The notes beneath the pieces were generated by a model. The model was not told the DNA's origin and did no database searches. It saw only the letters and a program-made list of their open reading frames with translations. DNA of 64,000 nt from Paraspadella gotoi. Its lineage: Eukaryota > Animalia > Chaetognatha. The stretch covers positions 26,624,872 through 26,688,871 of the forward strand of contig CM119267.1 in NCBI GenBank assembly GCA_051294375.1, given 5' to 3'. Below are positions 293 through 59,498 of the stretch, piece after piece. Position 1 is the first letter of the stretch; every line of letters starts with the position of its first letter. Made by a program: the position numbers and the translations under genes.

Positions 293-500
293 AATCTTCA
301 CCTGTCCTCACATCTGACCACTTTCCTTTACTAAATTCTTTGTTGGAACTCTCCCTCTCTCTCTCTCTTTCTCTCTCTCTCTCAATGTTTGTGAAATAAA
401 TTATTTTTGATTTCAAATGCTGATGAAGGCTTGAGTTGTAAGCCGAAACATGTCCAAAGTTAATAAAAAACTTTGTTGTTCCACAAAAATTTTCGTTTTT
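293..500 (+). mobile_element. Solo 3' end of the hammerhead-bearing Penelope-like family
   Basis: Family motif cacctgtcctcacatctgaccac, (CT)n, then CTGATGA-aggc..agcc-GAAA-catgtc at 420-454 and an AT-rich tail. Confidence 0.75.
420..454 (+). ncRNA. Minimal type I hammerhead ribozyme
   Basis: CTGATGA A GGCTT gagttgt AAGCC GAAA CATG TC; intact core, palindromic stem III ACATGT. Confidence 0.8.
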
Positions 501-749
501 AATTGATTGCAGATTTGAATTCCTCGTCAAAAGTTGATAAAAGAAAATATAAATCATTTTTAAAAATTATTTCATTAATTGGGTTCAAAATTTAAAAAAC
601 TATATTTAATATATAAAAAGTTAATTTTCAGCTTAAAATATAGCTTTTTCTAATTTTAGAATCTTAGAAAAAACTGTTTTGAAATTTTAACATTTATTGG
701 TTTAGTACTAGTATAAATATGGCCTACTGCGTAAATTGTAAAATTTATC

Positions 750-985
750 GCCTCATGTCCACCATCCTTAAGCCAAATCCATTGGATCAGAGGGGGAACA
801 CACCATCCCAGGCGTAGTGTTCCATCCACAGTCCTAACGACTTCCCTCTACGTTGGCAAAGCGAGACCGTCCTAGGGTAACCGCGCCAGTGACTGGAGGC
901 GTCACTGAGGGTCGGAAGCCCCCAAAGCCAACAGTGAGATGCCCCATTCCAATGGGCATCACAGGCAACCCGGCTGTTGCCATAA
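750..985 (+). repeat. Dispersed GC-rich repeat (SINE or LINE 3' end-like)
   Basis: Second copy on the minus strand at about 17328-17510 sharing ctagggtaaccgcgccagtgactg and catcacaggcaacccggctgttgccataa. Confidence 0.7.
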
Positions 986-1171
986 TATAGCTCGTTTTAC
1001 GACCGTCTCAGAAAAGGCTTGGGCGACTGTTTTGAGAATCTGTTGCGCAAAACCAAGCAGAATCAAAAATCCTCGGTCTCTCCGGTGTCCAACTTTAGCA
1101 AGGATCGGGACCATGGACAGGCTTATTTTGTGATGAAAAATTATCCTAATGCCTCACCTCGAGATGCTTAG

Positions 1172-1873
1172 GAAGATCTTTGCCAAACGGATCCCGACAT
1201 TTGTCCTGACGTCTACCAGTTCACTCGGATTTCATCGAACACATTTGACGCATCTTGGAACAATCCGTCCTATTTTGCTGTTACCCTTCTTAGAACCCAA
1301 TATGATTCATTATTGAAGAAAGAAAACTTAGTTCCCATTGTGAGACACGACGCTCGCACGCTGGCCTTCCACTGGCCTCCTTTTAATTTGGTCGATGGAG
1401 ATGAGGCACGAAGGAACGAGAGCCGCCTTGATGAATTAGCGTGGTGGGAGAAGCAAGTCGCCGTCTTTTATTACATCGGGGCCATTAACGTGACTCATCA
1501 ACGCCGCGACTCTTTTCTCACCGAAACCCCGATAACCAGTCCATTTTCGGGAAGCTATGAACCTATGGCAGTTGAAAATTTCCCGCCCTCGGTTGATACG
1601 CTTTTGCTGGTTACCTGGCCTTTGACGACAAGTTCCATCAATTCTGCCAATCTTGAATTTCGGTTCCGTGGACGCGATTTAACGGCTCATCGCGTCTCTG
1701 CGTCGGTTTTAGAGTTTTCGCGGGCAAAGACGGAAAGATTTGACTCGGCGTTTTCTTTAATTGTTTCTTTGAATCCAGAACCAGAAAAAAGAATTCATCG
1801 CATCAATCAATCCATCGTCGCATCAATTTGGATATCCCGAAGAACTCGGAGCATCGTAAACGCAATCAATTAA
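1172..1873 (+). CDS. Probable terminal exon of an unidentified upstream gene (or pseudogene fragment)
   Basis: GC-richer block with a frame open for 234 codons from just after gatgcttAG (1171) to TAA (1873): EDLCQTDPDICPDVYQF...LAFHWPPFNLVDG...WWEKQVAVFYYIG. The same frame is also open 986-1168. No family recognised; a minus-strand reading was tried and gave stops. Confidence 0.4.
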   Translation, partial: EDLCQTDPDICPDVYQFTRISSNTFDASWNNPSYFAVTLLRTQYDSLLKKENLVPIVRHDARTLAFHWPPFNLVDGDEARRNESRLDELAWWEKQVAVFYYIGAINVTHQRRDSFLTETPITSPFSGSYEPMAVENFPPSVDTLLLVTWPLTTSSINSANLEFRFRGRDLTAHRVSASVLEFSRAKTERFDSAFSLIVSLNPEPEKRIHRINQSIVASIWISRRTRSIVNAIN

Positions 1874-5900: not shown

Positions 5901-8900
5901 ATTAAAATAAATAAATAAAATGTAAAGAAAAATTTTGAGAGCCCTTCAGACATATGGCTATCGGATTCCTGAATTTGAATAGGGTAACTTGGAATGTTCA
6001 AAGAATGTCCTTAGAAATAGAAGGTTCTCACTTAAGAAAAGCACGGTTAGTAGAGCTCCCAGAAATACCATGCATTTTTGAAAGTTCCTGATACCTGTAA
6101 AGTTTCTTGTGCCAAATTCAGTGGAGAAAACGAATATCACAATAAAAAATTTCCCTGATGCTCTTGATGATTTTCCACGCCAGTTTTTTCGTCGTACCAC
6201 TTCCGGTTTTAAAAAATAAGGATTTTTGGAAAAAATGAGCTGTTATTCAGCCAGCATACTTAAATTATATCAAAATAAAGTTATTAATAACCTTATTACT
6301 AAATTTTTTGTTGTGGTTTTTAAATAAGGTTAAAAAATTATTATTAAGAAAGACTTCAAATTAGAAATTATTAGTTTTTTTAAGCCAAATCGTCCCTGAC
6401 CAAATTACTTTACAAATTCTAATAAGATTTATAAGAAAATATGATTTGGTTATATAAATAGAACTCTCTAAGGGATTTTAAATATTTAATCCTTAAGCCA
6501 GATATTGTCTTAAGGTTTGCCATGATCACAAAGAAGCAGCGAATTAGATAAAAGGCGCTTTGGCCTTTGTGGCTAGCAAGCCTCCCACTAACCTTAACCC
6601 TAACTCTCTCAACCAAAACCTTAGTCTAGGCCTTTTATTCATTTGCAAGCCTCAAATCTTTATCCCTAGTACAAGCCTTTCTAAGCTCGCTTATAACAAG
6701 ATTAGTATTGTGATATTGCAATTTGGACAGGCTAAGAAAAGGACAGGAAGCTTGGGTTAGGGTTAGGGAAAGTACTGGGAGAGGAATTAAGAATTAAAAC
6801 TTAGCCTATATGGATGGCGGGAAGAGGGATGCCTGAGTTGAGGCTCAGAGGTGAACCTCAGGCTGATGTGAGGGTTGGTGGAGAGGCTCTGGAGTGGATG
6901 CAGGGCTAGGGTTCTGGCATGATAAAACAGGAGGCCTAGGTTAGGGTTAGGGCTAGGAAGTGGCTCTCTGCAGATTTCACCAGCCAGGAAAACTGGTGAG
7001 GGTTGGATCAGGGACCGGTTTGGGGTTAAGGTTGAGCAGGAAGTACTCGAGCGTTAGGTGTTACTAGAAGGATTAGGGGTTTTTTCTCTGGCGCCGGTTC
7101 TCGCGTTCCATTGGTTTGCACCTCCTCGCTGCCCTTCGCTCTCGCCTCAACGTTTTTCGGCTATTCTCTGGGCGCTCCTTTTTTTGGAGGCGGTCATTGA
7201 CGCCCCGCCAGTATCTACATGCGCCATGGCGGTTTCGGAACTCTTCGATCTCGGCGTCGATCGCGGCATTATCTTTGGGGCCTGAGTCTTGTCCAGAGAC
7301 CAGTCGTTCTTCCGGCTTTTCTGTACGGACGTCTAGTGGGGCGCCTTATTGGGCGTTTTTCGGGACTTTTGACGCGTCCCCCAGCCCAGCAGCACTTCAA
7401 CGGAGTCGGCGCAACGTCGGGGCTGGGCCCTGCGGCAGCGCTGAGGCCGTGAGATAAGAAAAATAATTCCGTTCAGAATTTTATATTTTAAATTTGCAAA
7501 CAGGGATTAGGGGTAGGTAAAGTTTTGGGGGTTTAGGGTTAGGCATTAGAGTGATGTAAAAATGATAAAATTTTTGAAAATTAAAATTTAGCATATAAAA
7601 CATGAACGTAAATAGCGGAGGCCGACCGAATTAAAATTTTAATGGGAACAGCATTAAACTAATCCATTATTGGTATTAATTATTGCGTTAAAATATTTTT
7701 TTGCAAAAATGTTCCGAACCATGAGTAATTCGCTAATTAATATTATTATATTGCTATATAATGTCAAAAAATTGTTTTGGATATTTTAAGTTTTTTTAAT
7801 TGATTTTGATAGAGCTTAAAAAGTTAAGCAAAAAATATAATTATATCTTTTATTTGAAATTAAAGACGAAATCTTTTACATCAACAATTTTTATTTTTAA
7901 AGGTGCATACAAGTTTTGGCTTTCATTCAAGCCTTCATCAGTGCTTTGACAATTCACAATTTGATCTTTTTTTAAATTGACTTTGGGAGAGAGAGAGAGA
8001 GAAGAAATGGCCAACAAAGATGTGAGACAGGACAGTGGTGAAATGTGAGGACAGGTTTAAGAGAGAGAGAGAGAGAATGTGAGGGAAAAGAAATTAAATT
8101 TTGTGAGAGAGAGAGAGAGAGAGAGACAGAGAAGCAGAGGTAAACATTTGGTAGGAAAATTACATTAGATAATGTACAACAATAGTAAATTTAATAAATA
8201 AGTAAAAATAATTAAACAAACTAAATGATTTAAATTAATTCAGATTAAAATAAAGTGAATAAAGAAATGAAATTTAGATGAAATGGAAATAAGGATGTTG
8301 AGGGATAGGTAAGTAAAAGAGTAAGTGAAAAATAAGAAAAAGAAAAAGCTCAAAATGAGCTGGCCCCCCTGGGTCAACAATGGGGGATGCTGGCGATGTG
8401 GTCGGATCATTGGTTTGTCATAGGCTGAGAGGCTATTGTGGTGGAGTGCGACATGGACGGGCCAAGTGCAACTCGAATATCTCTCAGGCCTGATAAACCT
8501 GCCAACGGCCCTTGTCTCGCCTGTTGGCGAGGCGGGCGGTGGTCTGTTCTTGCCTGTTTTGCAACGGGAGTTACAGACTCCCTCTCCTCCTGCAACCGTT
8601 TTTTTGGTGGGCGCCCGGTCCGAGGAGAGTCGGACTGGGTTGTTGGAGAGGATGAGGCATCGGACATCCCTTGCGTATCGTATTTTCAGCTTTTTCTTTT
8701 TCTTATTTTTCACTTACTCTTTCACTTACTTATCCCTCAACATCCTTATTTCCATTTAGTCTAAATTTCATTTCTTTATTCACTTTATTTTAATCTGAAT
8801 TAATTTAAATCATTTAGTTTGTTTAAGTCTGTTTACTAAATTTACTATTGTTGTACATTATCTAATGTATTTTCATACCAAATGTTAACCTCTGCTTCTC

Positions 8901-9389
8901 TGTCTCTCTCTCTCTCACTCACAAAATTTAATTTCTTTTCCCTCACATTCTCTCTCTCTATCTCTCTTAAACCTGTCTTCACATTTCACCACTGTCCTGT
9001 CTCACATCTTTGTTGGTCATTTCTTCTCTCTCTCTCTCCCAAAGTCAATTTAAAAAAAGATTAAATTGTGAATTGTCAAAGCACTGATTAAGGCTTGAAT
9101 GAAAGCCGAAACTTGTATGCACCTTTAAAAATAAAAATCGTTGATGTAAAAGATTTCGTCTTTAATTTCAAATAAAAGTTATAATTATATTTTTTGCTTA
9201 ACTTTTTAAGCTCTATCAAAATCAATTAAAAAAACTTAAATTATCCAAAAAAATTTTTGACATTATATAGCAATATAATAATATTAATTAGGGAATTACG
9301 TTATCTAATGTATTTTCATACCAAATGTTAACCTCTGCTTCTCTCTCTCTCTCTCTCATTCACAAAAGTTAATTTCTTTTCCCTCACAT

Positions 9390-9420
<31 letters not shown>

Positions 9421-12375
9421 CCTGTCCTCACATTTCACCACTGTCCTGTCTCATATTTTTGTTGGCCATTTCTTTTCTCTCTCTCTCTCCCAAAGTCAAT
9501 TTAAAAAAGATCAAATTGTGAATTGTCAAAGCACTGATAAAGGCTTGAATGAAAGCCGAAACTTGTATGCACCTTTAAAAATAAAAATGGTTGATGTAAA
9601 AGATTTCATCTTTAATCTCAAATAAAAAAAGATTTAAAATTTTTGATAATTCACTTTTGACTCTCTTAATTGAACCAAGGCTCGGTACCTTAATTTTTAT
9701 GTTAGAGCTTTCTTAAGTATATCATTCTCTTCATTTTTTAAAGGGCTTTCTGAGGATATTAATATTGTTAATATTTTATTAATACTTTGTTTAAAAAAGT
9801 GCTAAAAGTTAAAGAAAAAAAAAATTTAAAATCAGTGAGTTGGAAAATGAAACCCGATTTTACAAGCCAACTTTTTCTACTCATTGTCAAGGCATATCTT
9901 AACCAGGGATGCTGGAGGCGCTAAATTTCGCCCGCCTCCCGAGACCCCCCTCGCCTCCGGTTTTGGTTCGCCTCTCATTTTAAGTACGGATCTGCTTATC
10001 AGCGGATCCGACTCTATTAATCACTTTTCTATAATCCTTTTTTCGTCGTCTGGTCGCCCCTCAATATTGTACCGGGCACAACACTTATTCATGTCAGACA
10101 ACATCGGAATTATTGATAAATTATTGCAAAAAAAATGGATGTCACGTGCCGTCCGTCTGTCACGTCCGTCGTCCGTCCGATCCGTCTTCTCAGGTCCGTC
10201 CCACCTTAAGCAAAAACACCATTACTCGTGATTGGAATGGATGATTTAAATGAAATTTTGTGTGAGGATAGGTAGTAACGTGTGTGGTGATTGACGATAT
10301 GAAGTTTCGATTGGAATCGTCCGAGTGGAACACTGAGTTTTAAATGGAAAAACAAAAAAATATAATTCACATAATTTGAGATACCAATTGCTCATGAGTG
10401 GATGGGCTGATTGACCTGGAAATTTTGTATGTGGGTAGGAAAGTGTGTGATGAACAGGAATCAGAGTTTCGATGGAATAGTTTGAGTGGAAATGAGTTTA
10501 AATGGAAAAAAACAAAAAACTGTTTTACTAAGTTGATTATGCTTCTTTTTCCTTTTATATAAATGTATCTGCAGGATTTTAATGAAATCGAAATAATTAA
10601 TCAGTTGTAATGTACTCAATTAGTAAATAAAGATTAATCAAGTAATTATGCATTAATTAGTTCAATTCAATCCGATCCATATCCCGGGTTTTTTTGCCCA
10701 TTTAGCAACAAAGCGTCCAATAACTCGTGATTGGCTGTTGGATTGGAATTAAATTTGTGTGTGTGGGTACGGATAGGAGGTGGTGGTGTATAAAGCTGGA
10801 TATGATTAATTTTTCGATGGAATCGTGTGAGTGGAAATTTAGTTAAATGGAAAAGAAACATAAGTCGAATTTACTCTAAGTATTCTTTACTTATTTGTTA
10901 ACCAATAAATATCTTCGCAATTTATCATAGATTGGATGGATAGATTGAGTTGAAATTTTTGGTGTTGTGGGTAGGAAAAACGTATGACGAAGCTTGATAT
11001 AAAGTGTCAGTGGAGAACGTACCAAGTTGTGGTAAACGTTTGAGGTTTTAAAATGTGGAAAAGAACTGTATGAGTCACATTTACCTTCGAAGATCTTTTT
11101 ATTTATCTTACGCGCGCAGTGATCAGATTGAGGATGAGATTTGTGAGCCGGGGTATTGAATGTGAAGGTGCAAGATAAGCTAGATATATATGATGAGGTT
11201 GTGACGGAATGCAAGTTTGAAAAATTTATGCAAGTTGAAAAAATGATAGCAAGTTAAAAATCTGTAAAAGCATAAGGTCGTCGCTAATTGCATAAAAAGA
11301 GAGAGAGATGAGAGAGAAAGAAGAGACGTGAGAGAGAGAGAGATGAAGGTGACAAAAAAGAGAGAAAGGAGAGAGAGTGGAGAGAGGAGAGAGAGAAGGA
11401 GACATTAACAATTAAAAAATCTGCTAAAAGACGTCAAGTATCGAGCCAGAGCCCCACTATCATAGAAAATTAGCTGAAAAATAACCGGGAAAAAAAACGG
11501 AATTGAAGCTGATCATGCGATAAACGAATTGTTGATCGTATAGTATTGATGTGAGGTAATACTGATTGATTATGTAATAGTGAATTTATTGATGTAATGG
11601 GGAATCGTGATTATTGATTGCTGATAATCAATTATTGATGCGGATATGTCATTGGTGACTACTGCTGTGATGAATAGTCATTCAGTGAATGGCCGATCGA
11701 TTGTCATTCATTGATGCGATGATTGTCCTTCATTGATGGCGATGATAGTCAATAAAACAAACAATGCGTGTATAGTGAAAGAGAGAGAGATAAGAGGAGA
11801 AGAGAGAGAGAGAGAAGAGACGAGAGAGAAAAAAGAGAGAGAGAGAGAAAGAGACGAGAGACAGAGAGAGAGAGAGAGAAGGAGAAGATATAGGAATAGG
11901 AATCCACGAGAAATCTCCTGGATGAAAATATGGGATTTTGTATTGGAAAAAAGCGGCGGAATAAATGGCAAATAATAAAGGTTTTAGAAAGGAAAAAAAA
12001 TAATCAGAATTTTCCAAAAAACAAACGATCACTGCAAAAGATCGGACAGATAGGGACAGACAACAAAAACACACAGAGAGACAAGGCAGAGAGAGAGAGA
12101 GAAAAAGAGGAGAGAGAGAGAGAGAGAGAGACAGGCCGCTGGCCAGAGAAAAGAGAAAGAGAAAGAGCGATAATATAATAATCTAAAGAGAGAGAAGAGA
12201 GAAGCTCTATATCAGCCCCTTTACCTCGTTAAAGAATCAGCAGTACTTATGGCGGCCGGCACGTAGCCGTGAGCTATTCTCTAACCCAAAGGACCCGGGT
12301 TGCGCCCTGTTCGCGGCATCGATTTTTTACATTAGTGACCCACATTATAGTCTAAAAAATTTTTTGTAAAAAAAA

Positions 12376-18400: not shown

Positions 18401-21400
18401 ACAAAAAATATATTACACTATTCGAACACCAATTACTCACGAGTGGATGGGGCGATTGACTTGAGAATTTTTATTGGGTAGAAAAGTGTGTGATTAAACT
18501 GGAAATCAAATTTCGATGGAATCGTTTGAGTGGAAATGAGTTTAAATTGAAAAAGCAAGAACCTGTTTAACTAAATGATTATGCTTCTTTTTCTTTTATT
18601 TTAAATCTAAATGCAAGATGTATTAATTTATCAAATAATTAACCAGTTAATAATCAATTAGTCAATTAAATAATAAATAATTAATTAATCAGCAATTAAT
18701 CAATAAAAACAAACATTTCGGATCAAATAGCCTAATTAATTAAATATTAACTGAATTAATTAATTATTAATTAATTAATTACCGATAATGATTGTCGGAC
18801 GATCCAACATTGTTTGCTCAAACTTGTTTTTACTAATTTTTATTCTAATCAATTTGCTTATTTATTCCTTAGGTTTATCACTTTGCTAAGTTCATTCTCA
18901 ATCATTTTTATTAATTAAATTAAAATAATTAAACTCGGACAGACGCTGGGTTGGCAAAAACTGGGTTTTTGTTTTTTTTTAAATTATAGATAGCATATTA
19001 ATTTTTTTTAAGATACAAATTTTTATATTAATTTCCTTTCTTTTCGTTGTTTTTGCAAATTAGAGAAAGACAAAGTTTATTTGTTTATGTACAACGATTT
19101 TATTTTTACATAGGACATGTTTCGGCTTTAAGTATAAGCCTTCATCAGCGTTTGATTAATCAGACAAATTTTTCTCTTAACATTGAGTCAGAGAGAGAGA
19201 GAGAGAGAGAGTTGAGAGAGAGAGAGAGAACAGAGAGAGAGAGAAAAGAGAAGAGAGAGTAAAGCTTCCAACAAAGGTTGAGATAAGGACAGTGGTCAGA
19301 TGAGGACAGGTGAAGGTAAGGAGAGAGAAGAAGAGGAAAGTGGTTGAAATGTGAATAGTGAAAATTTGAAGAGACAGAGAGAGAAAATATTTACGTTTTT
19401 TGTAATGTACAACAAAGATAAAGAATAATAATTCAATAACAACAAATAATATACTTAATGCTTAAACTAGTAGATTTAACGAGAAATATTTTAACTAGTT
19501 TTTAATTAAGATTGAAATAAGAGAAAGAGAAAGAAGAATGTGTGGTTAGGGATAGCTAAGTTGTAGAATTAGAGAAATAAAGATAAGAAAGAGCTCAAAA
19601 TGAGCCCATGACAAGTCAATGACCCGATCATATCATCAACGTCCTGCTTTTGCCAGGCCGGGGGGGCCAGCTCATTTTGAGCTCTTTCTTTATCTTTATT
19701 TTCTCTAATTCTACACTTAGCTATCCCTAACCACACATTCTTCTTTTCTCTTTCTCTTTATTTCAATCTTAATTAACAAACTAGTTAAAAATATTCTCAG
19801 TTAAATCTACTAGTTTAAGCATTAAGTATATTTATTTGTTATTGAATTATTATTCCTTTATCTTTGTTGTACATTACAAAAAATGTAAATATTTTCTCTC
19901 TCTCTGTCTCTTCAAATTTTCACTATTCACATTTCAACCACTTTCCTCTTCTTCTTCTCTCTCCTTACCTTCACCTGTCCTCAATCTGACCACTGTCCTT
20001 ATCTCAACCTTTGTTGGAAGCTTTATCTCTCTCTCTCTTTTCTCTCTCTCTGTCTCTCTCTCTCTCTCTCTGACTCAATGTTAAGAGAAAAATTTGTCTG
20101 ATTAATCAAACGCTGATGAAGGCTTATACTTAAAGCCGAAACATGTCCTATGTAAAAATAAATCGTTGTACATAAACAAATAAACTTTGTCTTTCTCTAA
20201 GATACAAATTTAAAATATTTATACTTCTTAAGTGATTAATGATAAAAATATATGAAAATATACTGATTATATTTAATAATAGTATTAATTAATTAATATT
20301 TTTTATGGTAAACAATGTAATAAATATAAATATTATATTTTTTGAATAAAACCTGTTATGAAAAAAGTGTATAAACTTAATTTTATTAGAAAATAGTAAT
20401 TAAATACTCAAAATAATTTGATATAAATATGCATCATAAACATTTAAATAAATTACTAATACATTGAAAATTGAAGTACATCTTTAGTACATGTTTTTGC
20501 CGAACTTGTCTTTTGGGCTAAAAATAAATTTTGATGTTTGGATATAATATTTGAGTTAGTAGAAGAAGTTTGAATTTGTTTACAACAACGATATTATTGG
20601 TACAAACTTCTTCTACTAATTCAAACACACCAAAACGAAAGGAAATTCGCGATGCCTAATATTTGAGTTAATAAAATATTAAGGTGTTTAATTAGGCTAA
20701 GATTTTTTCCTGAAGTCAATATATTATTTTCCCGCATTCTCGTTAATTTATTCCTGGTTAGGATACCTTTTCAGAGAATTCTTTAACATGTGACTTATAG
20801 TCAAATATATAATTTTATTGAAGTTTAATTTTTTCTGATAAATAGCTTTAAAAGACCCTAACCTTGTGTTAAATAATAACGAGAGAATAGCAATCATTTT
20901 TAATGTATCGCTCTTTACATAATTTGCGATTCATGATTAGGATTACTTAATATAAGGAAAATGGTACAGAAGCCAGCAACGAAAGTGATACTGATATTAA
21001 ACATGTAAAACATAGGTTTAGGGTTATTTTTTATCACTAAATTATATATTAAGCTTTGTAAAAATGATATATCTTATATGATTTAAATTTTTGCTTCAAC
21101 AATTTAATGTTTCATATTAAGAAATTAAGTAATTTTAAAAAAAAACAAAAAACCCACTTTTTAGTGGGTTTTTTTGGGTTTTTTGGCTGGGTTTTTTGGG
21201 TTTTTTTGGGTGGGTTTTTTAATGCCAACCCTGGACAGACGCCTCATTTTCTCAATGAATTCCCTGCGATTAACTTAAAATCCGCTTCACAGATTCAACC
21301 CTTTATGGAGACGGAGAACGAGTCAGGATTTGGCATCATCGAACGATGCCAACATGACCAGGTCAGACATAAAAACTTAGGATGTTTGATCCACGGACTT

Positions 21401-31600: not shown

Positions 31601-33203
31601 CTTTTGTCTCTCTATCTTTCTAGTTAACTTACACTTATTCTTAATTTATTCTGAACCTTAGTTTTACCCAAATATTAATATAACCAAATTAAAAAATAAT
31701 AAAAAATCATATCTGAATTAATTAATTAATTAATTAATTCCTTTAATTTTTTGTTTATGAAAAATTATCCTTTTCTGTTTGTTTTGTTACTTTTCTTTTT
31801 CCATTAATTTTTTAAGAAGACCAAATAACCAACGAGGTTAAAAAACAAAGCAATGTTTAATCCTTTAAATTAAACTCATTCTGACTATATAATTTTTTTT
31901 ATAATCATATAAAAAAATTTGTTGTGAAAAATTAAAAAATTGTTTTGTCTAAAGAAAGTAGTTAAATTTTTTTTTATAAAAAAATAAAATTTAAATTTAA
32001 AAAAATACTCTTTTCGTTGTTTTTTGAGGTATTAGGACAAAAACAGTTTTTATTTGACAACGATTTAATTGACACAATTTAGTCAGACATGTTTCGGCTC
32101 TTTCTTTTAGAGCCTTCATCAGTGCTTTTGACAATCAATATTTAGTCTCTGTTGAAGTAAGTTTTGAGAGAGAGAGAGAGAGAAAAAAATTTCCAACAAA
32201 GATAAGGTAAGGGACAGTGGTCAGATGTGAGGACAGCTGAAGGTAAGGAGAGGGAAGAAGTAAGTCTTTGAAAAATGAAAAAGAGTGAGAGAGAGAGAGA
32301 GAGCAAAGCAAAAATTTAAACAATACATTTAGCAATGTACAACAGAGATAAAGTGCATTAAATAATCTAAATATAAACTGAAATTAAATGTTAACAACAG
32401 AAATAAATAAGTTAGTAGAATAAAGTGAAATTTGAAATAGAAAATAAGTGGTGAGGGATAGATAAGTAAAGAAAAGTGAAAGTAAGTAAAAGAAAGAGCT
32501 CAAAAATGAGGCCTCTCAGCAGGCAATGGACGTCCGATACCTTTCCTGAGCCTGTAGCAACTTGGCGCGACTCTCCTCGCGCTGAGCGTCGCCCAAAACG
32601 ACGGCTACAGGAGGAGGGAGAGGAGTCTGTATCTCCTATAGCAAAACAGGCCAGAACAGGCAACTGCCTGCCTCACCGTCAGGTGAGAGGAGGGCTGTCG
32701 GCAGGCTTATCAGGCCAAAGGGATATACGAGTAGCATTTGGCATTTTCCCAGGCGGATCTCTTCCGGATCCCAGCATGACAAACTCAACATATATACCCT
32801 CGCAACCTATGACAGGCCAATGACCCAACCTTATCGTCAACGTCCTCCATTTGCCGGGGGGGCTAGCTCATTTTTGAGCTCTTTCTTTTACTTACTTTCA
32901 CTTTTCTTTACTTATCTATCCCTCACCACTTATTTTCTATTTCAAATTTCACTTTATTCTACTAACTTATTTATTTCTGTTGTTAACATTTAATTTCAGT
33001 TTATATTTAGATTATTTAATGCACTTTATCTCTGTTGTACATTGCTAAATGTATTGTTTAAATTTTTGCTTTGCTCTCTCTCTCTCTCTCTCACTCTTTT
33101 TCATTTTTCAAAGACTTACTTCTTCCTCTCCTTACCTTCAGCTGTCCTCACATCTGACCACTGTCCCTTACCTTATTCTTTGTTGGAAACTCTCCCTCAA
33201 TTT

Positions 33204-33234
<31 letters not shown>

Positions 33235-39200: not shown

Positions 39201-41456
39201 CAATTCTCTAATTAATAAGTAACAACGAAAAAAGAAAAAAGGATTACTTCAATGAATCTTTTAATAAATTCATAACTTTTTGTTCCTTGTGTTTTGTAGA
39301 TTTAGTAGAAAAACAAAACTTCTTGTTAAAACATTATTTTAATTATTTTTTTAAAAAATTATTGTATATTAAAGAAAAGATTATTTTATTTATAACAAAA
39401 TATTTGATATATAGAGTTAAACCAAACTATTACTCTTATCCGTACAAAATTTATATTCAGATATCATTTTTTTAAATTATTTTTTAAATTAAAATTATAC
39501 TTATATTTTGAATATAGATATAATTATATTTATATTAGTATAAGTAATAACATTTTTTTATAGTAATATCCGAATATTATTTAAATGATTTATCTTATAA
39601 CAATTATATTTTGTGATTAAATATTAAAATTAATGCTGTTGAATCATAGAAGTTTTTGGGGGTTTTCAGTTTTGTAAAAAAACATATTAAATTAATTGAT
39701 TAACTTTAAGCTGTGGTAAGTCTCCTCAATGCATTTAAAGATATCAAATATTTTGCATTACCATTAATTAAAATAGGTGATCTTAAAAAAATAATAAATT
39801 ATAATTTATAAAATATTAAAAAAATTTTAAACATTTTAGCTCTTCAACACCCTTGGCTTAAGCTAAAAACTAATATTTTTTTAGATGAATGGTTTTAAAA
39901 ACAGTTTAAATAGGATAAATTAAAATCATTATCAGAATAATTATAACTTGATTAAAGATTATTATATTAAAAAATTAACTAAAAAAGCTAAAAATACAAA
40001 AATGGTGAATTTCCATATTTTGAGAGTCTGTCAACACCCCTGGCTCGGGCGGAAAAAGTTTTTTTTTTAAATAAAACTTTTTGAGTTAAAAAGAGCTTTG
40101 GAAAAAACGGAACAGAATGACACCGAGACTGGTTATCTAATTAGAAACTTTGTCGGATTCAAATGTGTGTCTATGGTTAGGGTTGACGTTAAGTTCATTT
40201 TAGGGTTAATATTAATGTCAATTTTTAAGGTTAGGGGTAGATTGGAATGAAATTTGTGTGTGAGTAGTGGAAAAAGGTGTGATTGAGCTGGATATAAAGT
40301 TATAGATATAAAATTACAAGATTTGTCCGAATGGAAATGATTTGAAATGGAAAAAAACAAAACCCTGTTTCACTATTTGATTATACTTTTTCTTTTTATC
40401 TTAAATATAATTGCAAGTTGCATTAATCACTCAATTAATAAATCAATGAATTTATCAATCAATCGTCTTCGGTGTTATTGTCGTCGTCGTCGTCGCCATC
40501 ATCGTCATTATTGCTTGTCGTGGTCAGTGATTTGACGAAAAGACCTTAAAAATTTTTTTTCTCAAAAAGATCTGAAAAGATAATTAATTAAATAATGAAT
40601 TAGTTAATAAATATTAAATAAATTAGTTTATTAATTAATTAATAATTAATTACCGCTAATGATCGTGGGCAGATCCGGCGTTGTTTGCTCAAACTTGTTT
40701 TATTCATTCTTTTGTCCCAATTTTTTTTCAGGAGCCATTCTCATCTCGGCTTTGAAGAACGGAACTGGGGTTTGTCTAACGTGGAGCGCGTAGATGTTCA
40801 TCAAGCGGATGTTTGCGCGTTAATGGCGGCGCTGATCGGAATTCCTTTTCCGGTCAACTCGCAGGGGATCGTTCCTCTTGAATTCCTAAATGCAAACGGT
40901 GAGGAAATCGAGGAAATCGCTTCTTCCTTCTACAACTACAAATTCTCTTAAAGGTTAAAGAAATAAGTCAAATGAATGAATTAACAAATTAATTCTTCTT
41001 TCAGACGAGACAAAAGCAAAGATCCTCCACAGCAACGCTCGACAAATTGCGATGCAGTTCTCTGCCAAAATGGCGGCCAAGCGCCGATCCGCTTTTCGCC
41101 TTTTCTTCAAAGAGTTCAAACCTTTGGCGGGAAGTCACGCGACCGAGATGTTGTCCGAGGGCCAAAGGCTCATATTTCAGGGAAGGTTAGTTCACGTCCA
41201 GGTTAATCGGCCCATCAGTCCTTTCATGTCTTGTCCCTGCTGTTCGCCAGATTCCTTGAGTCTATCTCCATGTCTCACCAACTTGTCTACTTCGCCCTCG
41301 AAGGGCTTCGCTACTACCACACCTACGACCGCGTCTTTCTCGGCCTTTCAGTCGCTTTGGGTTTCCTCGGCTGGAGCGCCTATGTCATCGTCCTGCTCTT
41401 GCGGCGCCACTCGGGCCTGGTCCCCTCCGCGTCGGAGATCGTCTTCTCTGAAAATG
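24349..41456 (+). CDS. PIGN: GPI ethanolamine phosphate transferase 1 (PIGN/MCD4), first 8 exons (about 485 aa); the gene continues beyond the window
   Basis: Exons 24349-24475, 24539-24733, 24822-24962, 25047-25247, 25392-25629, 40732-40898, 41005-41185, 41251-41456 join in frame. Diagnostic motifs: [117 protein letters not shown]. An in-frame ATG also lies at 24310. Confidence 0.95.
25978..26912 (+). mobile_element. HINE family 3 element (spans a 10-N gap)
   Basis: 5' atcgtcg(c/a)aatcg palindrome, (gtc)n, 3' gcgattgcgacgat. The same 3' end plus cttatgcttttaag hairpin recurs at ~4836, 23553, 46943, 47406; the 5' end recurs at 42110. Confidence 0.7.
30318..31200 (-). mobile_element. HINE family 1 copy
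   Basis: Reverse-complement ends aacaagttagagcaaacaatgtcggatctgcc ... gcagatctgactaa; contains a clipped hammerhead tail at about 30800-30875. Confidence 0.8.
31410..31601 (+). mobile_element. tRNA-derived SINE-like element, second copy
   Basis: Matches the reverse complement of 17832-18030. Confidence 0.65.
32086..32122 (-). ncRNA. Minimal type I hammerhead ribozyme
   Basis: Reverse complement reads ca CTGATGA A GGCTCT aaaagaa AGAGCC GAAA CATGTC tg. Confidence 0.8.
33284..33320 (+). ncRNA. Minimal type I hammerhead ribozyme (sense to PIGN intron 5)
   Basis: ca CTGATGA A GGCTCT aagagaa AGAGCC GAAA CATGTC tg. Confidence 0.8.
36797..37900. mobile_element. TTAA-flanked non-autonomous DNA transposon (GG...CC ends, Kolobok-like)
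   Basis: ttaa-ggccagggatcactcaa ... ttgagtgatcccggacc-ttaa; related ends at 55273-55930. Confidence 0.7.
38370..40175. repeat. Long dispersed repeat, inverted relative to 44198-45570
   Basis: Collinear reverse-complement match (e.g. ttgtcggattcaaatgtgt / acacatttgaatccgacaa; gggatgctaggatagaaatg / catttctatcctagcatccc); interrupted by the Penelope-like insertion at 38748-39235. Confidence 0.8.
38748..39235. mobile_element. Hammerhead-bearing Penelope-like insertion G
   Basis: Minus-strand 3' end with a degenerate hammerhead at 38808-38846, plus a short plus-strand piece starting at gaaacatgtc (39151) with the caacgaaa tail. Confidence 0.7.
40732..41456 (+). CDS. PIGN: PIGN exons 6-8
   Basis: Exons 40732-40898, 41005-41185, 41251-41456 (introns 106 and 65 nt); [43 protein letters not shown]. 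The last donor (41457) is the best guess. Confidence 0.92.
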
Positions 41457-43419: not shown

Positions 43420-44067
43420 ATATTTTTTTTCTTTCATCTAAAGTGATATTATATTAATTTAGGAAAGAAACAAAAATTTCGTTAGTTTAGCAACATTGTT
43501 TTATTACATAATGGACATGTTTCGACTCTTGAATTCGAGTCTTCATCAGCATTTGAAAATTCACAAACTTTTAGTTATTATCAATAACTTTGGAGAAGTG
43601 AAAAAAAGGAGAGAGAGATTTGAGAGAGAGAGAGAAAGAAAGAGAGAGTGTTTCCCTCACCTTTATCTTATCTATCCCTCACAACTTATTCTTCACTTTC
43701 AAATTTCAATTCTCAATTTTTTTACTATTTCAAATGTCCAATTTTCACAAACAATTAAATTTATTAACCTTTGTTACTTATTTTATTTTTTTCTTTTTCT
43801 TTGTTGTACATTGTCTCCCTCTCTCTCTCTCTTTTCACCAAATCTTAAATTTGCTTACTCTTCTTCTTTTCCTTCACTTTCACCTGTCCTCAATTCTGAC
43901 CGACTATCCTTTACCTAATTCATTTCTTCATTTCTTTCTGTCACTCAAATCTCTTTCTCCTTTTTACTCTCTCTCTCTCTTCAAAGTTATTGATAATAAC
44001 TAAAAGTTTGTAAATTTTCAAATGCTGATGAAGACTCGAAGAGTCAAAACACGTCCATTCTGTAATA
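43420..44067. mobile_element. Hammerhead-capped Penelope-like insertion E (right end lost in gap)
   Basis: Short inverted left arm with intact hammerhead 43514-43549(-); plus-strand copy ~43650-44067 with hammerhead 44025-44055 (GAAA changed to AAAA). Confidence 0.85.
43514..43549 (-). ncRNA. Minimal type I hammerhead ribozyme
   Basis: Reverse complement reads tg CTGATGA A GACTC gaattcaa GAGTC GAAA CATGTC ca. Confidence 0.8.
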
Positions 44068-48345: not shown

Positions 48346-49619
48346 AAAATTTTAAAAAATATTGTGATTTATAATCTGTTTAGCTGATTACCGCTTACTT
48401 ATCGTAGGCAGATCCGACATTGTTTGCTCAAACTTGTTTGTTAACAAGCAACAATTTAAAAAAAAAAAAAGAAACTTTTTATCTCTAAGTCTAAATTAAA
48501 AATTTTTAATTAAAATTTCTACAATGATATCCCGATATCCTAACATCCCACGTAAGCCTCTCCCCTAGCCCTAACCCTAACCCGCGCCTCACGTCTAATA
48601 CCAAGCCTTAACCTTGAAGCTATCATCGCCCATGAGACTTTCCTCGTCCTTACCTTGAGCCTCTCAAGCTGAGTATAACTAAAACGACCTTGCTGATCGT
48701 AATGCTAACTTCTATTTATTCAAATCGAATTACAACTACCTTAAACGTTAAAACTAAACATTAACCCTAAACCTAATTTTATTAAAATTGTTATAACTAG
48801 AACATGAGTTTCAATTCATTAACAAAATTGCCATTTTCTATGCGAGTTAGCCACATATCGCTATGGCAAAATCGCCACAATTTACTAAATAAAGCCGTTT
48901 TCAGTTGCGCCCCCAGTACTCGCGGAGCAACTCTTTTAAGTCACTTTTCGGTCTGTCGGTATGTCTGTCCGTTGGTCTGTCCCACTTACGTTAAAAACAT
49001 TTATAATTTGCCTTTAGTTTGTTGCTCATTTGTTAAAAATCAAATCTAAGCGACTACTAGCGCCGCCTTTTGTTTTTAGTCGGATTTGTATATCAGCAGT
49101 TTCCGACTCTATATTCTATAATTCACTTTGTCAGTCCGTCGGTCCCACCCCTAAATCTTGCGCGGTAAATAATTTTTATCACTTTAGAACATGCAATTAT
49201 CGCTAAAATTATAGCAAAAAAACGATGTCCGTCTGTCTCTGTCTGTCTGAAGACGCGTCGCCACCTTTTCATTAAACTCCAATTACTCGTGATTGGATTG
49301 GATGGATTGGGAAAGTGTATGATTGAGCTGGATATAAAGTTTCGAGGAATCGTGCGAGTGGAAATGAGTTTAAATGGAAGAGAACGTAAGTCACTTTTAT
49401 TTGAATCTTTTTACTAATTTTAATCCATAATTACTCGAATAAATCATAATTGGATGGATAGATTGAGATTAATTTTGTGTGGTGGGGAGGAAAGTGTGTG
49501 ATTGAGCTTGGTATAAAGTTTTGATGGAATCGTGCGAGTGGAACGAGTTTAAATGGAAAGAACGTAAGTCACTTTTATTTAATCTTTTTAATATTTAATC
49601 CATAATTAATCGTATAATC

Positions 49620-49990
49620 TAGAGAAAACAAAGTTTTATTAGTTTCAACGAATTTGTTTTTAGAAACACGACATGTTTCGGCTTTGGTTTTCAAGCCTTC
49701 TTCAGTGTTTTGTGAATTAGACAAAATATGTGCAAAAAGAGAAGTGAGAGAGTGGTGAGAACAGAATAGTGGTCAGAGGTGAGGACAGGTAAGTTGAACA
49801 CAGATTGAGTGAGTTTTTGAAAAGAATGAAAATTTGTTAGAGAGAAAGAGAAGAGAGAGAGAGATAGACTTAACAGGATAAATAAATAATTAAAAATATA
49901 CATTGTTGCAATGTACAACAGTAAATAAATGTTAAAAAAAAAAAAAAAAAAAAAAACTGGAAAAAGATTAGTGAGAATTTTTAACAATTG
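49620..49990 (-). mobile_element. Solo 3' end of the hammerhead-bearing Penelope-like family (H)
   Basis: Intact hammerhead 49670-49705(-): CTGAAGA AGGCTT...AAGCC GAAA CATGTC; family motifs gtgaggacagg and aatgtacaac. Confidence 0.8.
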
Positions 49991-50032
49991 CAAAACGAGT
50001 GAATAAATAATTCAATATGTGTCTAATAGCTA

Positions 50033-53946: not shown

Positions 53947-53966
53947 AAAGAGAGAGAGAGAAAGAA

Positions 53967-54012
<46 letters not shown>

Positions 54013-54473: not shown

Positions 54474-54517
<44 letters not shown>

Positions 54518-55070: not shown

Positions 55071-55272
55071 TTTATATTAGCTTAACTGATAATGTATTAA
55101 TTAATTGATGCAAGTTGAAAGATTGATGCGAGTTGAAAAAATGATGCAAGTGAAAAAATGATGGCGAGTTATTTTTTACTATAAAATTTATTTATTTTTA
55201 TCTATTTATTCACCGCTGATTACCGCTTAATTATCGTGAGTAGATCCGCTATTGTTTGCTCAAACTTGTTAA

Positions 55273-55930: not shown

Positions 55931-57656
55931 TTAAAGAAATAAGGAAATAAGTAAAAAGAAAAGTAATGCGGCGCAACACCTTGGAATAACCGTTCCTTGT
56001 TTTAATGAATTATTGAAAGTTTGATGTATTTGGTTTTTTAGTCTTATCAGCAGATCCCGACTCTATAATTCACTTTGTCGGTCCGTCGGTCCCCCCCTAA
56101 ATCTTGTTGGGCATTCAAATCATGTCAGAACATCAAATTATGCAAAAAAAAAGATGTCTGTCTGTTAGATCTACCAAAAATCAATAACCACACTAGATCT
56201 CTCTTAACGACTTCTTCTGTTTGGTTTTTTTTTGTCTGCTCTATAAATTGGAACCATAAAAACAAAAAAAGTTGACCGGAATAAAACTCATTTTTGCGGT
56301 GTTTGAACATAATAATTTATAGTCACTTTAAATATAAAATCGATTTTAATCATATATTTTAGATAATTTTAAGATAAATTTTTGATTAGTATCATAATTA
56401 CTATTAATATTTATTTAATAATTTTTATTTTTTTAAATAAAAATATTATTATTATATTGACTAAATTTAATTAAATTTTGCTTTATTAACTTATTAATAG
56501 TAATTTTTTTAATTTGGGCTTACCCTTTACCCTATCTTATATTAAACATGGCCATTCAGCCTGTTCTACTTAAAAGTAATAAATATGCAGGTTATAACAA
56601 AATAATTTTTAATTTTTTATAAAAATTATTTTTTAAATTAATTCTTGAAAATTTAAAAATATTAATTATAAAATAAATAAATCTAAATTAAGGTAAAAAA
56701 GAATCTATAACCTTGAATTATATCAGTATATGAATTTATTTAATCTTAACAGGTCTTTCACTGTTTTAGTCGCTTTCTCTGCTTTTTTGTGGGAAACTCT
56801 TTTGTGCAAATCGTTCAAATTAATTTCCTACCTAAAAGGTTAAACAGGATCTAAAGATAATATTGTCTAAAAATACATGAGATGATTCTCATTTTGATAA
56901 ATATGATGCCTCGCCACTTTCTCTATAACGCGTTCCCTCAGTTATTATTTGACCAGTCTTTTACTGGTCGGCCAACTGTTTTAGCGTTCTTTTATCTGAC
57001 AAAGTTCTTTACACATTTCATTATTAATTTATTTATTCAAAACACTTATTCATGATTTGTTATTACTTATTTGATATTTATATCATTTTAAAATATTTCC
57101 CTTATATTAAAAGCAGCAATGTACATTATTGGGAGATATAAAAAAATAAAGTAATGACTAAATATTTGAGCCTGGTTCAAAGCTTAGGACCTATTCCATT
57201 TCTGCTGAGGGGGCACAAAAGATGGTTAATAATCTTTAGCACACTTAGCGCCTTATCCACACTGGTAAACTCATCTTGTCGAGTGTATTCTGACCTTATT
57301 CCAGGCTCCCAGACTTGCTGAAGATTTCTCCCTTCTCTCTACTGAAAACAGTATAGGGTGGGGGGCATTTAGTCGGGTATTGCATATGTTCACCCCTTCA
57401 GTCTAGAACCGGTAGCTAATTTAGTAATACCATCAGCTCATAGCCATTTTGGGTCCTGGAAAACCCTCAAGCTAGGTTCCAAGCTTGGGAACCATTCAAT
57501 GAAACCATTCCATTGCTGCTGAAGGGGCACAAAAGATGCAGATAGTAGTCTTCAGCCCACTTTGCGCTTCATCCATATATCTTTCTCTCACTAAATATTT
57601 AAAAATTTTTTGTCTTAATCTTATTTTTCTGTACCTCCCAATAATATTCTATTTAT

Positions 57657-58268
57657 TGTGTGAAATCCTTTCTTTCGTTGTGTTTTGTAATGAGAAAGAG
57701 TTTGAAATAGTTTTACAACGATTTATTTTAAACAGTGGACATGTTTCGACTTTGATTCAAGTCTTCATCAGCACTTGTGAATTGACAGACAATTTCAAAT
57801 TACAGGAAATGTGAGAGAGAGAGAGAAGAGAGAGGGAAAGGTTACCAATAAAGATTTTGACAGTGATTAAAGTTGAGGACAGGGTAAGTTTAGACCAGAG
57901 AGAAAGAGAGAGCGACAGATATTGAAAAGAAACTTGGTATGAGAGAGAGAGAGAGAGTGAGAAAGAGAGAGAGAGAGAGACAAAAACAGTGAATCTGGTT
58001 ATATCATACCAAGTTTCTTTTCAATATCTGTCTCTCTCTCTCTCTCTGGTCTAAACTTACCCTGTCCTTAACTTTAACCACTGTCAAAATCTTTGTTGGT
58101 AACCTTTCCCTCTCTATTTTCTCTCTCTCTTTCTCTCTCTCTCTCTCACATTTCCTGTAATTTGAAATTGTCTGTCAATTGACAAGTGCTGATGAAGACT
58201 TGAATCAAAGTCAAAACATGTCCACTGTTAAAAATAAATCGTTATAGAATTATTTTAAACTCTTTCTC
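57657..58268. mobile_element. Palindromic hammerhead-capped Penelope-like insertion F
   Basis: Inverted arms of ~270 bp; hammerheads 57738-57771(-, intact) and 58189-58222(+, AAAA); 13-bp TSD atattctatttat (57644-57656, 58269-58281). Confidence 0.9.
57738..57771 (-). ncRNA. Minimal type I hammerhead ribozyme
   Basis: Reverse complement reads gtg CTGATGA A GACTT gaatca AAGTC GAAA CATGTC cac; stem I gtg/cac. Confidence 0.82.
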
Positions 58269-58579
58269 ATATTCTATTTATATATAGCTTTATATTTATT
58301 ACTTATTAACCTTTATTACTAAGTATTATAAAGGCTTATTTAATAAAACTTAAAAGGTAAGAAAATTAAACTTACTTGCCATGTTTAATATGAGATAGGG
58401 TTATGGTTAAGCCAAATAACAAAAAATTTTACCAATAAATAGGTAAATAAGTAAGTTTAATAAATGTAATCAGTATAATAATAAAGTTATTATTAATAAT
58501 ATTAATAATAATGATAAAATAAATATTAATAATAATTAGAATTATGATAATATTTAAAAATTTGTACTAAAATTATTAA

Positions 58580-59498
58580 CAAAGTTTGATTTTATTTTGC
58601 AACGAATTTTATTAAAATAAGAGCAGATGTTTCGGCTCACAATAACGAGCCTTCATCAGCGCACATGAGTTATGACCTTGAATACACAGTTTTTAGTTAA
58701 AGTAAAAGAGAGAGAGAGAGAGAGAGGGTAAAGGTTTCCAACAAAGAATTGAGTAAGGACAGTGATCAGTGGTGAAGGACAGATTTTTAGAAGTGGCTAG
58801 TTTGAATAAGTTTTGAAAAGAAGTGAAAATTGGTGAGAGAGACAGAGAGAGACAAAATAAATAATAATTACATTTGAGCAATGTACAATATAGATAAAGA
58901 TAAGGAAACTGTTTATATAACAAATTGAAATAAATTAATTTTTGAAATTGAAAAGTTGAAAATTGAAATTGAGAGTTGAAAATTTGAGATTTTAGAGACG
59001 ATAGATAAGTAAAGATTGTAGTGAAATATAAGAATTAAGAAAGAGCTCAAAATGACTGGGCCCCCCCGGTCTTATGAAGGAGAGGTATTGCTGCGGGGCC
59101 GGGTCATTGGCGCGTCATGGGTTGAGAGGATAATGTGATTGATCTCGTGTTGGCTGGGTCAGGTATTGCTCCCCTGAGGAAACAAACCCAAGCCACCCTT
59201 ATATCCCTCTGGCCTGATGCGCCTGCCGGCGGCCCTTTTCTCACCTGACGGTGAGGTGGGCGGGTATCCACTCTTGCCACTTTAGTGACTGGGATGGTGG
59301 AATCCTCTTCATCTTCCTGTAGCCCGTCTTTTACTTTTAACTAAAACACTTGTATAAAGTTCATAACTCATGTGCGCTGATGAAGGCTCGTATTGTGAGC
59401 CGAAACATGTCTGCTCTTATAAAAAAAAATTCGTTGCAAAATAAAATCAACTTTGTTAATCTCTCAAACAACAAAAAAGAAAGGATAATTACCATGAA
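58580..59498. mobile_element. Hammerhead-capped Penelope-like insertion D
   Basis: Minus-strand main copy with ORF C-terminus ~59330-59105; short inverted right arm with intact hammerhead 59377-59411; 15-bp TSD tactaaaattattaa (58565-58579, 59499-59513). Confidence 0.88.
59377..59411 (+). ncRNA. Minimal type I hammerhead ribozyme
   Basis: gcg CTGATGA A GGCTC gtattgt GAGCC GAAA CATGTC tgc. Confidence 0.8.

What the first reader, a model, noticed from the sequence alone, without database searches (positions are those of the whole stretch)
293..59498. Family of palindromic insertions capped by outward-facing minimal hammerhead ribozymes (Penelope-like retroelement system)
Seen: 16 CTGANNA-stem II-GAAA-stem III motifs (420+, 7941-, 9084+, 9534+, 19148-, 20113+, 32122-, 33284+, 38846-, 43549-, 44025+, 49705-, 57771-, 58189+, 58659-, 59377+) and 2 fragments (30875-, 39151+). 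They sit at the outer ends of nine related insertions, six of which are clear inverted repeats with the ribozymes pointing outward. Stem II covaries between insertions (GGCTT/AAGCC, GGCTCT/AGAGCC, GACTC/GAGTC, GACTT/AAGTC) while the core is held. Stem III is usually the palindrome ACATGT. Known: minimal type I hammerheads with a palindromic stem III, thought to act as dimers, are characteristic of Penelope-like element pLTRs, which also give inverted 5'-truncated insertions. Inference: an abundant, diversified, recently active PLE or retrozyme-like family, at about one insertion per 7 kb, with no RT or endonuclease in this window.
Basis: partly seen in the sequence, partly recalled or inferred. 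Interest (0 to 1): 0.88.

Follow-up and report, generated by a model that had tools for sequence, protein, structure and literature searches.

The report
Penelope retroelement ends with hammerhead ribozymes
These mirror-image insertions with hammerhead-shaped motifs at their outer ends are real and are likely the broken-off ends of a Penelope-type jumping gene in a layout already described, and their one-sided tails hint that each cut DNA end would start its own copy of the element's RNA.

Summary
Confirmed, and mostly ordinary. All 16 hammerhead cores and 2 fragments are where stated (14 strict matches against 0 in 50 shuffles). Stems I and II covary, but only 9 of 16 cores are intact. Four insertions carry a shared ORF C-terminus (three long pieces, dN/dS 0.34-0.54). 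Four have 13-15-bp target-site duplications. A 30-40-nt tail sits on one arm only in 7 of 7 tailed two-armed insertions. Three further stubs have no ribozyme. This is the published anatomy of endonuclease-bearing Penelope-like elements (PLEs): minimal hammerhead, inverted 5'-truncated pLTR, tail, TSD. No RT or GIY-YIG parent was found in five searches, so the clade is open. Extra hint: no tailed arm passes a conserved hairpin about 50 nt behind the stop codon, while tail-less arms run into the ORF. That favours priming from both cut ends over simple fold-back; one insertion (7846-9630) argues for fold-back. The scan noted this layout and reading before in several other genomes. New member of a known kind.

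The parts
292..500 (+). E1: single 5'-truncated pLTR arm, hammerhead at 420 (core intact)
7846..8356 (-). E2 main arm (pLTR), hammerhead at 7941 (G12 changed)
8407..8682 (-). E2 ORF C-terminus (91 codons + stop), 5'-truncated
8683..9190 (+). E2 inverted arm starting at the junction hairpin, hammerhead at 9084 (G8 changed)
9191..9299 (.). about 110 nt of host flank (about 7725-7835, itself part of another repeat) duplicated in inverted orientation behind the E2 inverted arm
9297..9630 (+). E2 third, shorter arm in tandem, hammerhead at 9534 (G8 changed)
19023..20197 (.). E3: inverted arm with tail (19023-19605, -), last 5 codons + stop of the ORF (19605-19622, +), main arm without tail (to 20197, +); hammerheads 19148- and 20113+, both intact; 14-bp TSD 19009-19022 / 20198-20211
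20559..20656 (.). ribozyme-less miniature fold-back of the pLTR 3' end, tail on the right arm only; 14-bp TSD 20545-20558 / 20657-20670
28292..28361 (+). ribozyme-less stub: pLTR 3' end with tail, no TSD seen
   Evidence: E 2.5e-6; 23.8 bits against at most 9.2 in 10 shuffled windows
30790..30875 (-). stub beginning inside the hammerhead (stem II onward)
32010..33375 (.). E4: inverted arm with tail (32010-32510, -), ORF piece, main arm without tail (to 33375, +); hammerheads 32122- and 33284+, both intact; arms 0.8% apart; no TSD seen
32512..32823 (+). E4 ORF C-terminus (103 codons + stop), basic and Pro/Ser-rich, 5'-truncated; other copies in sequencing runs continue upstream
32865..32880 (+). 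conserved 6-bp hairpin with an initiator-like TCATTT, about 45-50 nt behind the stop; inner boundary of the inverted arms (also at about 8357-, 19673+, 59054-)
38745..39245 (.). E5: main arm (38745-39150, -, hammerhead 38846, core changed) and a tailed stub of a different subfamily (39151-39245, +); no TSD, about 135 nt of target missing against the paralogous repeat copy
43460..44067 (.). E7: short tail-less arm (-, hammerhead 43549, intact) and long arm (+, hammerhead 44025, G12 changed); right end lost in the N gap 44068-44167
49617..50030 (-). E6: single arm, hammerhead 49705 (intact), abutting a long-TIR element at 50031
57657..58268 (.). E8: tailed arm (-, hammerhead 57771, intact) and tail-less arm (+, hammerhead 58189, G12 changed); 13-bp TSD 57644-57656 / 58269-58281
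58580..59498 (.). E9: tail-less main arm (-, hammerhead 58659, core changed), ORF C-terminus 59104-59325 (-), short tailed inverted arm (59327-59498, +, hammerhead 59377, intact); 15-bp TSD 58565-58579 / 59499-59513
62745..62839 (.). ribozyme-less miniature fold-back, tail on the left arm only; at best a degenerate TSD

Best explanation
These are likely 5'-truncated insertions of an abundant, many-branched endonuclease-bearing Penelope-like retroelement, each made of its ORF end and/or terminal repeat (pLTR) with a minimal type I hammerhead motif, a head-to-head second arm, a tail on one arm and, in four cases, a 13-15-bp target duplication. Shown: the anatomy. Inferred mechanism: the element's endonuclease cuts AT-rich DNA on both strands 13-15 nt apart and both 3' ends prime reverse transcription. 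One primer starts at the outer site (tail included) of the RNA's 5' pLTR and can run no further than the RNA's 5' end, placed at the initiator-like hairpin. The other starts at the inner site of the 3' pLTR and can run on into the ORF. The two cDNAs are joined head to head, which puts the hammerheads outward. The hammerhead is predicted to cut weakly, as a dimer or with protein help, after GTC/GTA, and is a passenger in the insertions.
For: Homologous ORF end on the strand of the main-arm hammerhead in E2, E4, E9 (50-60% aa identity, stop at the same place, in-frame indels, dN/dS 0.34-0.54) and its last 5 codons in E3. Contigs of other copies continue upstream of 32508 (loose ends listed in 3 of 4 runs, agreement 0.95-0.98; by my reading ten more codons without a stop; X5 and X6 look like one data set). 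TSDs of 14, 13, 15 bp in E3, E8, E9 against at most 11 in 40 cross-insertion controls, and 14 bp at the 20559 stub. Tail on exactly one arm in 7 of 7 tailed two-armed insertions (E3, E4, E5, E8, E9, 20559, 62745), and the ORF is joined to the tail-less arm in 3 of 3. The tail is element sequence: summed contig depth at 32020 is 34,360 against 85 on the unique flank in run X4 (not a copy number). Inverted arms of E2, E3, E4 stop within about 5 nt of one another at the hairpin, and two contig joints in other runs end at 32504 and 32505 with different partners. 0 of 7 tailed arms pass the hairpin. E4 junction shows 3 nt of overlap (arm to 32510; ORF copies from 32508). Three stubs lack the hammerhead. 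Literature: the tail is the stretch between two RT start sites, both strands are cut and extended, and the hammerhead is protein-assisted and dispensable in vitro (PMC11167929).
Against: No RT or GIY-YIG domain was seen and no parent was found, so PLE identity rests on anatomy. The last 100+ codons match no Pfam family. TSDs were found in only 3 of 6 large insertions tested; E2, E4 and E5 have none. E2 does not fit: no clear tail on any of its three arms, and its inverted arm carries about 110 nt of inverted host flank, which points to DNA-templated fold-back or read-through. The fixed boundary coincides with a palindrome, which PMC3846280 reads as self-priming. No RNA start was mapped; the initiator likeness is a recalled consensus. 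The two contig joints are weak (sides 25 and 32 nt; one with the letters between unknown). The tail profile was built from five of the tails counted. The reading frame for dN/dS was chosen after seeing the data.
Confidence: 0.75

Rival explanations
1. Same PLE identity, but the inverted arm is made by self-priming: the new strand folds back at the junction hairpin (or an antisense template is used) and is copied on itself, as proposed for Adineta Penelopes.
For: A conserved 6-bp hairpin lies exactly at the inner boundary in E2, E3, E4. E2's inverted arm includes about 110 nt of inverted host flank. Palindromes at inverted junctions are read this way in PMC3846280. A GTAAG donor-like motif follows the conserved pLTR core on the antisense strand in 5 of 9 insertions (read), which would fit antisense transcripts.
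Against: Fold-back of a tail-less arm cannot create a tail, and fold-back of a tailed arm that ends at the hairpin cannot supply the ORF piece joined to the other arm (E3, E4, E9). E5's two arms are of different subfamilies (47%). E8, E9 and the stubs invert away from the hairpin.
Confidence: 0.17
2. A non-autonomous retrozyme-like or MITE-like family: short non-coding elements with hammerheads, moved in trans, the centre being passenger DNA.
For: No RT or endonuclease in the window and no protein parent found. Most pieces are non-coding. Animal retrozymes are reported as PLE derivatives (10.64898/2026.07.22.740005).
Against: The centre is a conserved reading frame cut at different points and continued in other copies. 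Arm lengths differ within and between insertions, unlike terminal inverted repeats. No head-to-tail arrays of units, apart from one partial tandem in E2. TSDs of 13-15 bp.
Confidence: 0.06
3. The hammerheads are active monomeric ribozymes kept by the host to cut its own pre-mRNAs.
For: An intact core (33284+) lies on the sense strand of a 15-kb PIG-N intron.
Against: Helix III is 2 bp with a 2-nt loop and stem I is 1-4 bp. None of eight monomer folds forms the hammerhead. 7 of 16 cores carry inactivating-type changes. Similar minimal motifs show no monomer activity in vitro (PMC4209133).
Confidence: 0.02

Closest known systems
Minimal type I hammerheads of metazoan PLEs (Cervera and de la Pena 2014, PMC4209133; parts 1-2 of 4 of the text read)
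   Same: [quoted passage not shown]
   Different: Here the two motifs of a pair are about 300-1150 bp apart; stem II is 5-7 bp (7-8 in Schistosoma). No flanked RT ORF was seen here.
EN+ Penelope insertion unit: pLTR, adjacent inverted pLTR, optional 30-40-bp tail, TSD (Adineta Pen2a_Av, PMC3846280, passages and Discussion read; PMC8557442 Fig. 2 legend, sections 6 and 15 read)
   Same: Head-to-head arms, tail on one end, TSD, palindrome at the inverted junction, initiator-like motif at the pLTR start.
   Different: pLTR about 500 nt with (TC)n runs against about 200 nt; TSD 13-15 bp against 8-10 bp; the tail here shows no consistent start of a reading frame; the ORF ends in 100+ residues with no GIY-YIG match.
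Poseidon_Ac of Anolis, in vitro (PMC11167929; parts 1-2 of 4 read)
   Same: AT-rich targets, two element ends a tail apart, A/C-rich stem-loop near the ends (here a 7-bp stem closing over the inner end, weakly supported), hammerhead not needed for insertion.
   Different: There the RT starts lie 111-118 nt into the ORF and the start codon is within the hammerhead; here no such start codon is conserved. No biochemistry here.
Naiad (N-terminal EN) PLEs (PMC8557442; passages, sections 6 and 15, supplement search hits seen)
   Same: Inverted/tandem layout and tail; the ORF does not end in GIY-YIG.
   Different: Naiads lack canonical hammerheads (some have the core only) and often target (TA)n; these have full stem II, helix III and covarying stem I, and clear TSDs.
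Animal non-LTR retrozymes (10.64898/2026.07.22.740005; part 1 of 5 read)
   Same: Type I hammerhead, link to PLE pLTRs.
   Different: Retrozymes are tandem, non-coding units; these are head-to-head, 5'-truncated and carry an ORF end.

Membership tests
EN+ Penelope-like elements | Telomerase-related PLE reverse transcriptase ORF | tested here: inconclusive
   Only the last 100+ codons are in the window; five searches found no parent; no whole genome held.
EN+ Penelope-like elements | GIY-YIG endonuclease (C- or N-terminal) | tested here: inconclusive
   No Pfam match in the ORF end or in 150 window frames; the domain may lie upstream. TSDs imply a staggered cut (inference).
EN+ Penelope-like elements | pLTR behind the ORF with a minimal type I hammerhead on the sense strand | tested here: met
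EN+ Penelope-like elements | 5'-truncation with an adjacent inverted copy | tested here: met
   Six insertions with both hammerheads plus E5 and two stubs; truncation of the ORF shown.
EN+ Penelope-like elements | 30-40-bp tail on one end | tested here: met
   7 of 7 tailed two-armed insertions have it on one arm; E2 has none clearly, E7 is cut by a gap.
EN+ Penelope-like elements | Target-site duplication in AT-rich DNA | tested here: met
   3 of 6 large insertions tested (13-15 bp; control maximum 11) and the 20559 stub.
EN+ Penelope-like elements | Full copies in partial tandem (pLTR-ORF-pLTR); intron retention | not testable with these tools
Minimal type I hammerhead ribozyme | Conserved core, stems I-II, palindromic helix III | tested here: met
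   9 of 16 intact cores, covariation in stems I and II, ACATGT in 11 of 16.
Minimal type I hammerhead ribozyme | Self-cleavage (dimer or protein-assisted) | not testable with these tools
   Needs an in vitro assay.
Naiad clade | Absence of a canonical hammerhead | tested here: not met
   Full minimal hammerhead present.
Naiad clade | N-terminal GIY-YIG, CxC, DKA motif, IFD | not testable with these tools
   Parent not recovered.
Non-LTR retrozymes | Non-coding units in head-to-tail tandem, each with a hammerhead | tested here: not met
   Head-to-head layout and ORF end; one partial tandem only (E2).

The most novel reading that the evidence does not exclude
The parent is an undescribed PLE lineage whose protein ends in a long basic tail rather than a GIY-YIG domain yet keeps full hammerheads, and its insertions record that one RNA is copied from both of its terminal repeats at once: the tailed arm from the 5' repeat, running off at a fixed RNA start in the hairpin, the tail-less arm from the 3' repeat into the ORF. 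That would explain the head-to-head layout of PLE insertions in general.
Probability: 0.2. Interest if true: 0.55.

Novelty: new member of a known kind. Interest (0 to 1): 0.3.

Why it matters
As a ribozyme find it is ordinary: thousands of such motifs per animal genome are published. What it adds is a dense natural record of PLE integration. Ten hammerhead-bearing pieces cover 12% of 64 kb, each from a different subfamily, and they share one rule: tail on one arm, ORF on the other, tailed arm never past the hairpin. How PLEs make inverted insertions is still open in the papers read here, and this rule is testable genome-wide and in the existing in vitro system. The ORF end has no relative in the databases searched, so the parent would be a new family worth curating.

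Tried and rejected
Rfam scan: no hammerhead family hit; the miRNA-type hits are the inverted repeats, all below gathering score. Parent search with the three-peptide alignment: none at E<=0.1 among longer proteins, none at E<=0.01 among near lengths, none by tblastn in metagenome contigs. The one hit among 1.84 billion representatives is a spurious tandem-repeat protein. No usable atlas hit. Hammerhead pattern in metagenome contigs: 7 loci, alike only over the 35-39-nt motif, no ORF relative. Empty-site test for E4: flanks mostly uncovered in three of four runs and no bridging joint, so no verdict on polymorphism. No RNA holder listed; no evidence on expression. Start codon in the hammerhead or tail: no frame conserved across subfamilies. 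Stub starts as a mark of ribozyme cleavage: by eye they begin some 5-10 nt behind the predicted site and E5R and 30875 begin before it; inconclusive. My first guess of a nematode host was not supported: no nematode name among the best 120 PIG-N hits, best named hits are molluscs and other animals at 62-67%. Tail-like hit at 13787: no arm or TSD, left out. Sigma-70 scan is not relevant to an animal. Searches for a printed two-primer model of PLE inversion listed no paper that states it; only listings were seen for most hits and subscription journals are not searched. Searches for hammerhead-bearing PLEs in nematodes (one passage of PMC11118728) added nothing. Supplements of PMC4209133, PMC3846280 and PMC11167929 were not opened and may hold closer motifs or junction data.


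Full report
Observation. All 16 cores and the two fragments are at the stated places. A strict test (core, stem II, AC..GT) gives 14 matches against 0 in each of 50 shuffled windows. Six insertions carry a hammerhead on each arm, pointing outward. On the 16-row alignment, two stem II pairs and three stem I pairs change on both sides; 82.8% of cells pair against 75.0% in shuffles and 19-41% in slid controls. The number of covarying pairs is not above shuffles, and the rows are related. Only 9 of 16 cores are intact, helix III is ACATGT in 11 of 16, and contiguous stem I is 1-4 bp in the six cores tested, with a helix III self-duplex of -4.6 kcal/mol. None of eight monomer folds gives the hammerhead. 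Rfam has no hit.

What the insertions are made of. Oriented by the hammerhead, each arm is part of one unit: ORF end, stop, G-run and hairpin, about 400-450 nt of T/C-rich sequence with a conserved 25-nt core and (TC)n runs, hammerhead, AATAAA-like motif, end. E2, E4 and E9 hold a homologous reading frame ending at the same stop, and E3 holds its last five codons. Indels are in frame and dN/dS is 0.34-0.54 (frame chosen after seeing the data). Contigs from sequencing runs show other copies continuing upstream of 32508, so E4 is 5'-truncated. Different insertions are about 45-70% identical, mostly 55-65%, so nearly every one is its own subfamily. Arms within an insertion differ by 0.8% (E4) to 15% (E7, E9) substitutions. 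Ten hammerhead-bearing pieces cover 7,676 bases, 12% of the window.

Ends. E3, E8 and E9 have direct repeats of 14, 13 and 15 bp exactly outside their ends, against at most 11 bp in 40 cross-insertion controls; E2, E4 and E5 have none, and E7 ends in a gap. A 30-40-nt tail stands on one arm only in E3, E4, E5, E8 and E9. A profile of these ends found three more pieces without a hammerhead: 20559-20656 (fold-back, tail right, 14-bp TSD), 28292-28361 (single stub) and 62745-62839 (fold-back, tail left). So the tail is one-sided in 7 of 7 tailed two-armed insertions, and in the 3 of these with ORF sequence the ORF is joined to the tail-less arm. The tail is repeated genome-wide: depth 34,360 at 32020 against 85 on the flank in run X4 (not a copy number).

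Inner junction. The inverted arms of E2, E3 and E4 stop within about 5 nt of each other at a 6-bp hairpin that holds TCATTT. TCATTT fits an initiator consensus recalled from insects, not tested. Two joints in contigs of other runs end at 32504 and 32505 with different partners; both are weak. Shorter tailed arms stop earlier; none of 7 passes the hairpin.

Mechanism. The best reading is an endonuclease-bearing PLE. A staggered cut gives the TSD, and both 3' ends prime (inferred). In Poseidon_Ac both strands are cut and extended, the tail is the stretch between two RT start sites, and the hammerhead is protein-assisted and dispensable (PMC11167929). Here the asymmetry fits one primer on the RNA's 5' pLTR, bounded by the RNA start, and one on the 3' pLTR, free to enter the ORF. 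Simple fold-back cannot give both a tail on one arm and an ORF piece on the other. Against this: E2 has no clear tail and its inverted arm carries about 110 nt of inverted host flank, and PMC3846280 reads junction palindromes as self-priming. E5 joins arms of two subfamilies over a target deletion of about 135 nt against a paralogous repeat, which suggests two RNAs. I put PLE identity at about 0.9 and the two-primer step at about 0.6-0.7 for the tailed cases. Earlier notes of this scan had the two-primer and RNA-start readings on other genomes and named two of the papers; they are leads, not support.

Parent and host. No RT or GIY-YIG domain is in the 150 of 311 frames scanned. The same hammerhead form occurs in 7 metagenome contigs with no other likeness. 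The host is an intron-rich eukaryote, likely an animal; its PIG-N exon is closest to two unnamed proteins (78-79%) and then to molluscs and other animals (62-67%). PIG-N exons map to 24349-25630 and 40730-41437 with contiguous protein positions, so E4, E5 and the stubs at 28292 and 30875 lie in one 15-kb intron, with the intact 33284 core on the sense strand. That fits low monomer activity.

Comparison and verdict. The motif matches the minimal hammerheads of metazoan PLEs, including opposite-strand pairs (PMC4209133). The layout matches inverted pLTR + tail + TSD units (PMC3846280; PMC8557442). It fails the Naiad trait of lacking hammerheads and the retrozyme trait of non-coding tandems. It works like an EN+ PLE; membership lacks the RT and endonuclease test. 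New member of a known kind, interest 0.3.

Noticed in passing
window 50031-52112: Element with about 860-bp terminal inverted repeats (91%), CAGT ends and a TA on each side, abutting E6; Tc1/mariner-like non-autonomous element by recall; a weak Integrase_H2C2 hit below cut-off at 51338-51517.
   Followed up: no
window 24349-41437: PIG-N (GPI ethanolamine phosphate transferase 1) gene with a 15-kb repeat-filled intron between 25630 and 40730.
   Followed up: partly
window 2173-22937: LAMP-like gene: signal-peptide and Thr/Pro-rich frame at 2173-2988 and a Lamp2 transmembrane hit at 22671-22937; E2, E3 and the 20559 stub would lie in its introns (exons not mapped).
   Followed up: no
antisense strand of the pLTR core, e.g. 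49790, 57880, 19310, 32240, 38970: A GTAAG splice-donor-like motif follows the conserved 25-nt pLTR core on the antisense strand in 5 of 9 insertions, and AAAATG stands at the hairpin on that strand; may mark an antisense transcript (read).
   Followed up: no
post-hammerhead region, e.g. 19025-19115: The conserved TCGTTG behind the hammerhead is complementary to CAACGA in the tail, giving a 7-bp stem that would enclose the inner end; weak energy and little covariation.
   Followed up: partly
window 4867-5661, 9978-12963, 18101-18832, 41737-42400, 49073-49619, 52293-55072, 61932-63478: A very abundant unrelated repeat family with internal 155-nt repeats; a 3-kb copy pair at 82% (9977-12963 and 52293-55072).
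   Followed up: no
window 38413-40168 and 44202-45576: Inverted pair of a 1.4-kb repeat; E5 sits in one copy and the other copy serves as the empty site, with about 135 nt extra.
   Followed up: partly
window 60960-61113: 73-bp near-perfect hairpin belonging to a repeat end; gives a sub-threshold mir-87 hit.
   Followed up: no
L005 901-1184 / 3388-3671 and 3037-3394: A metagenome contig with four hammerhead-like hits and its own fold-back around 3037-3394; likely another PLE-type insertion.
   Followed up: no
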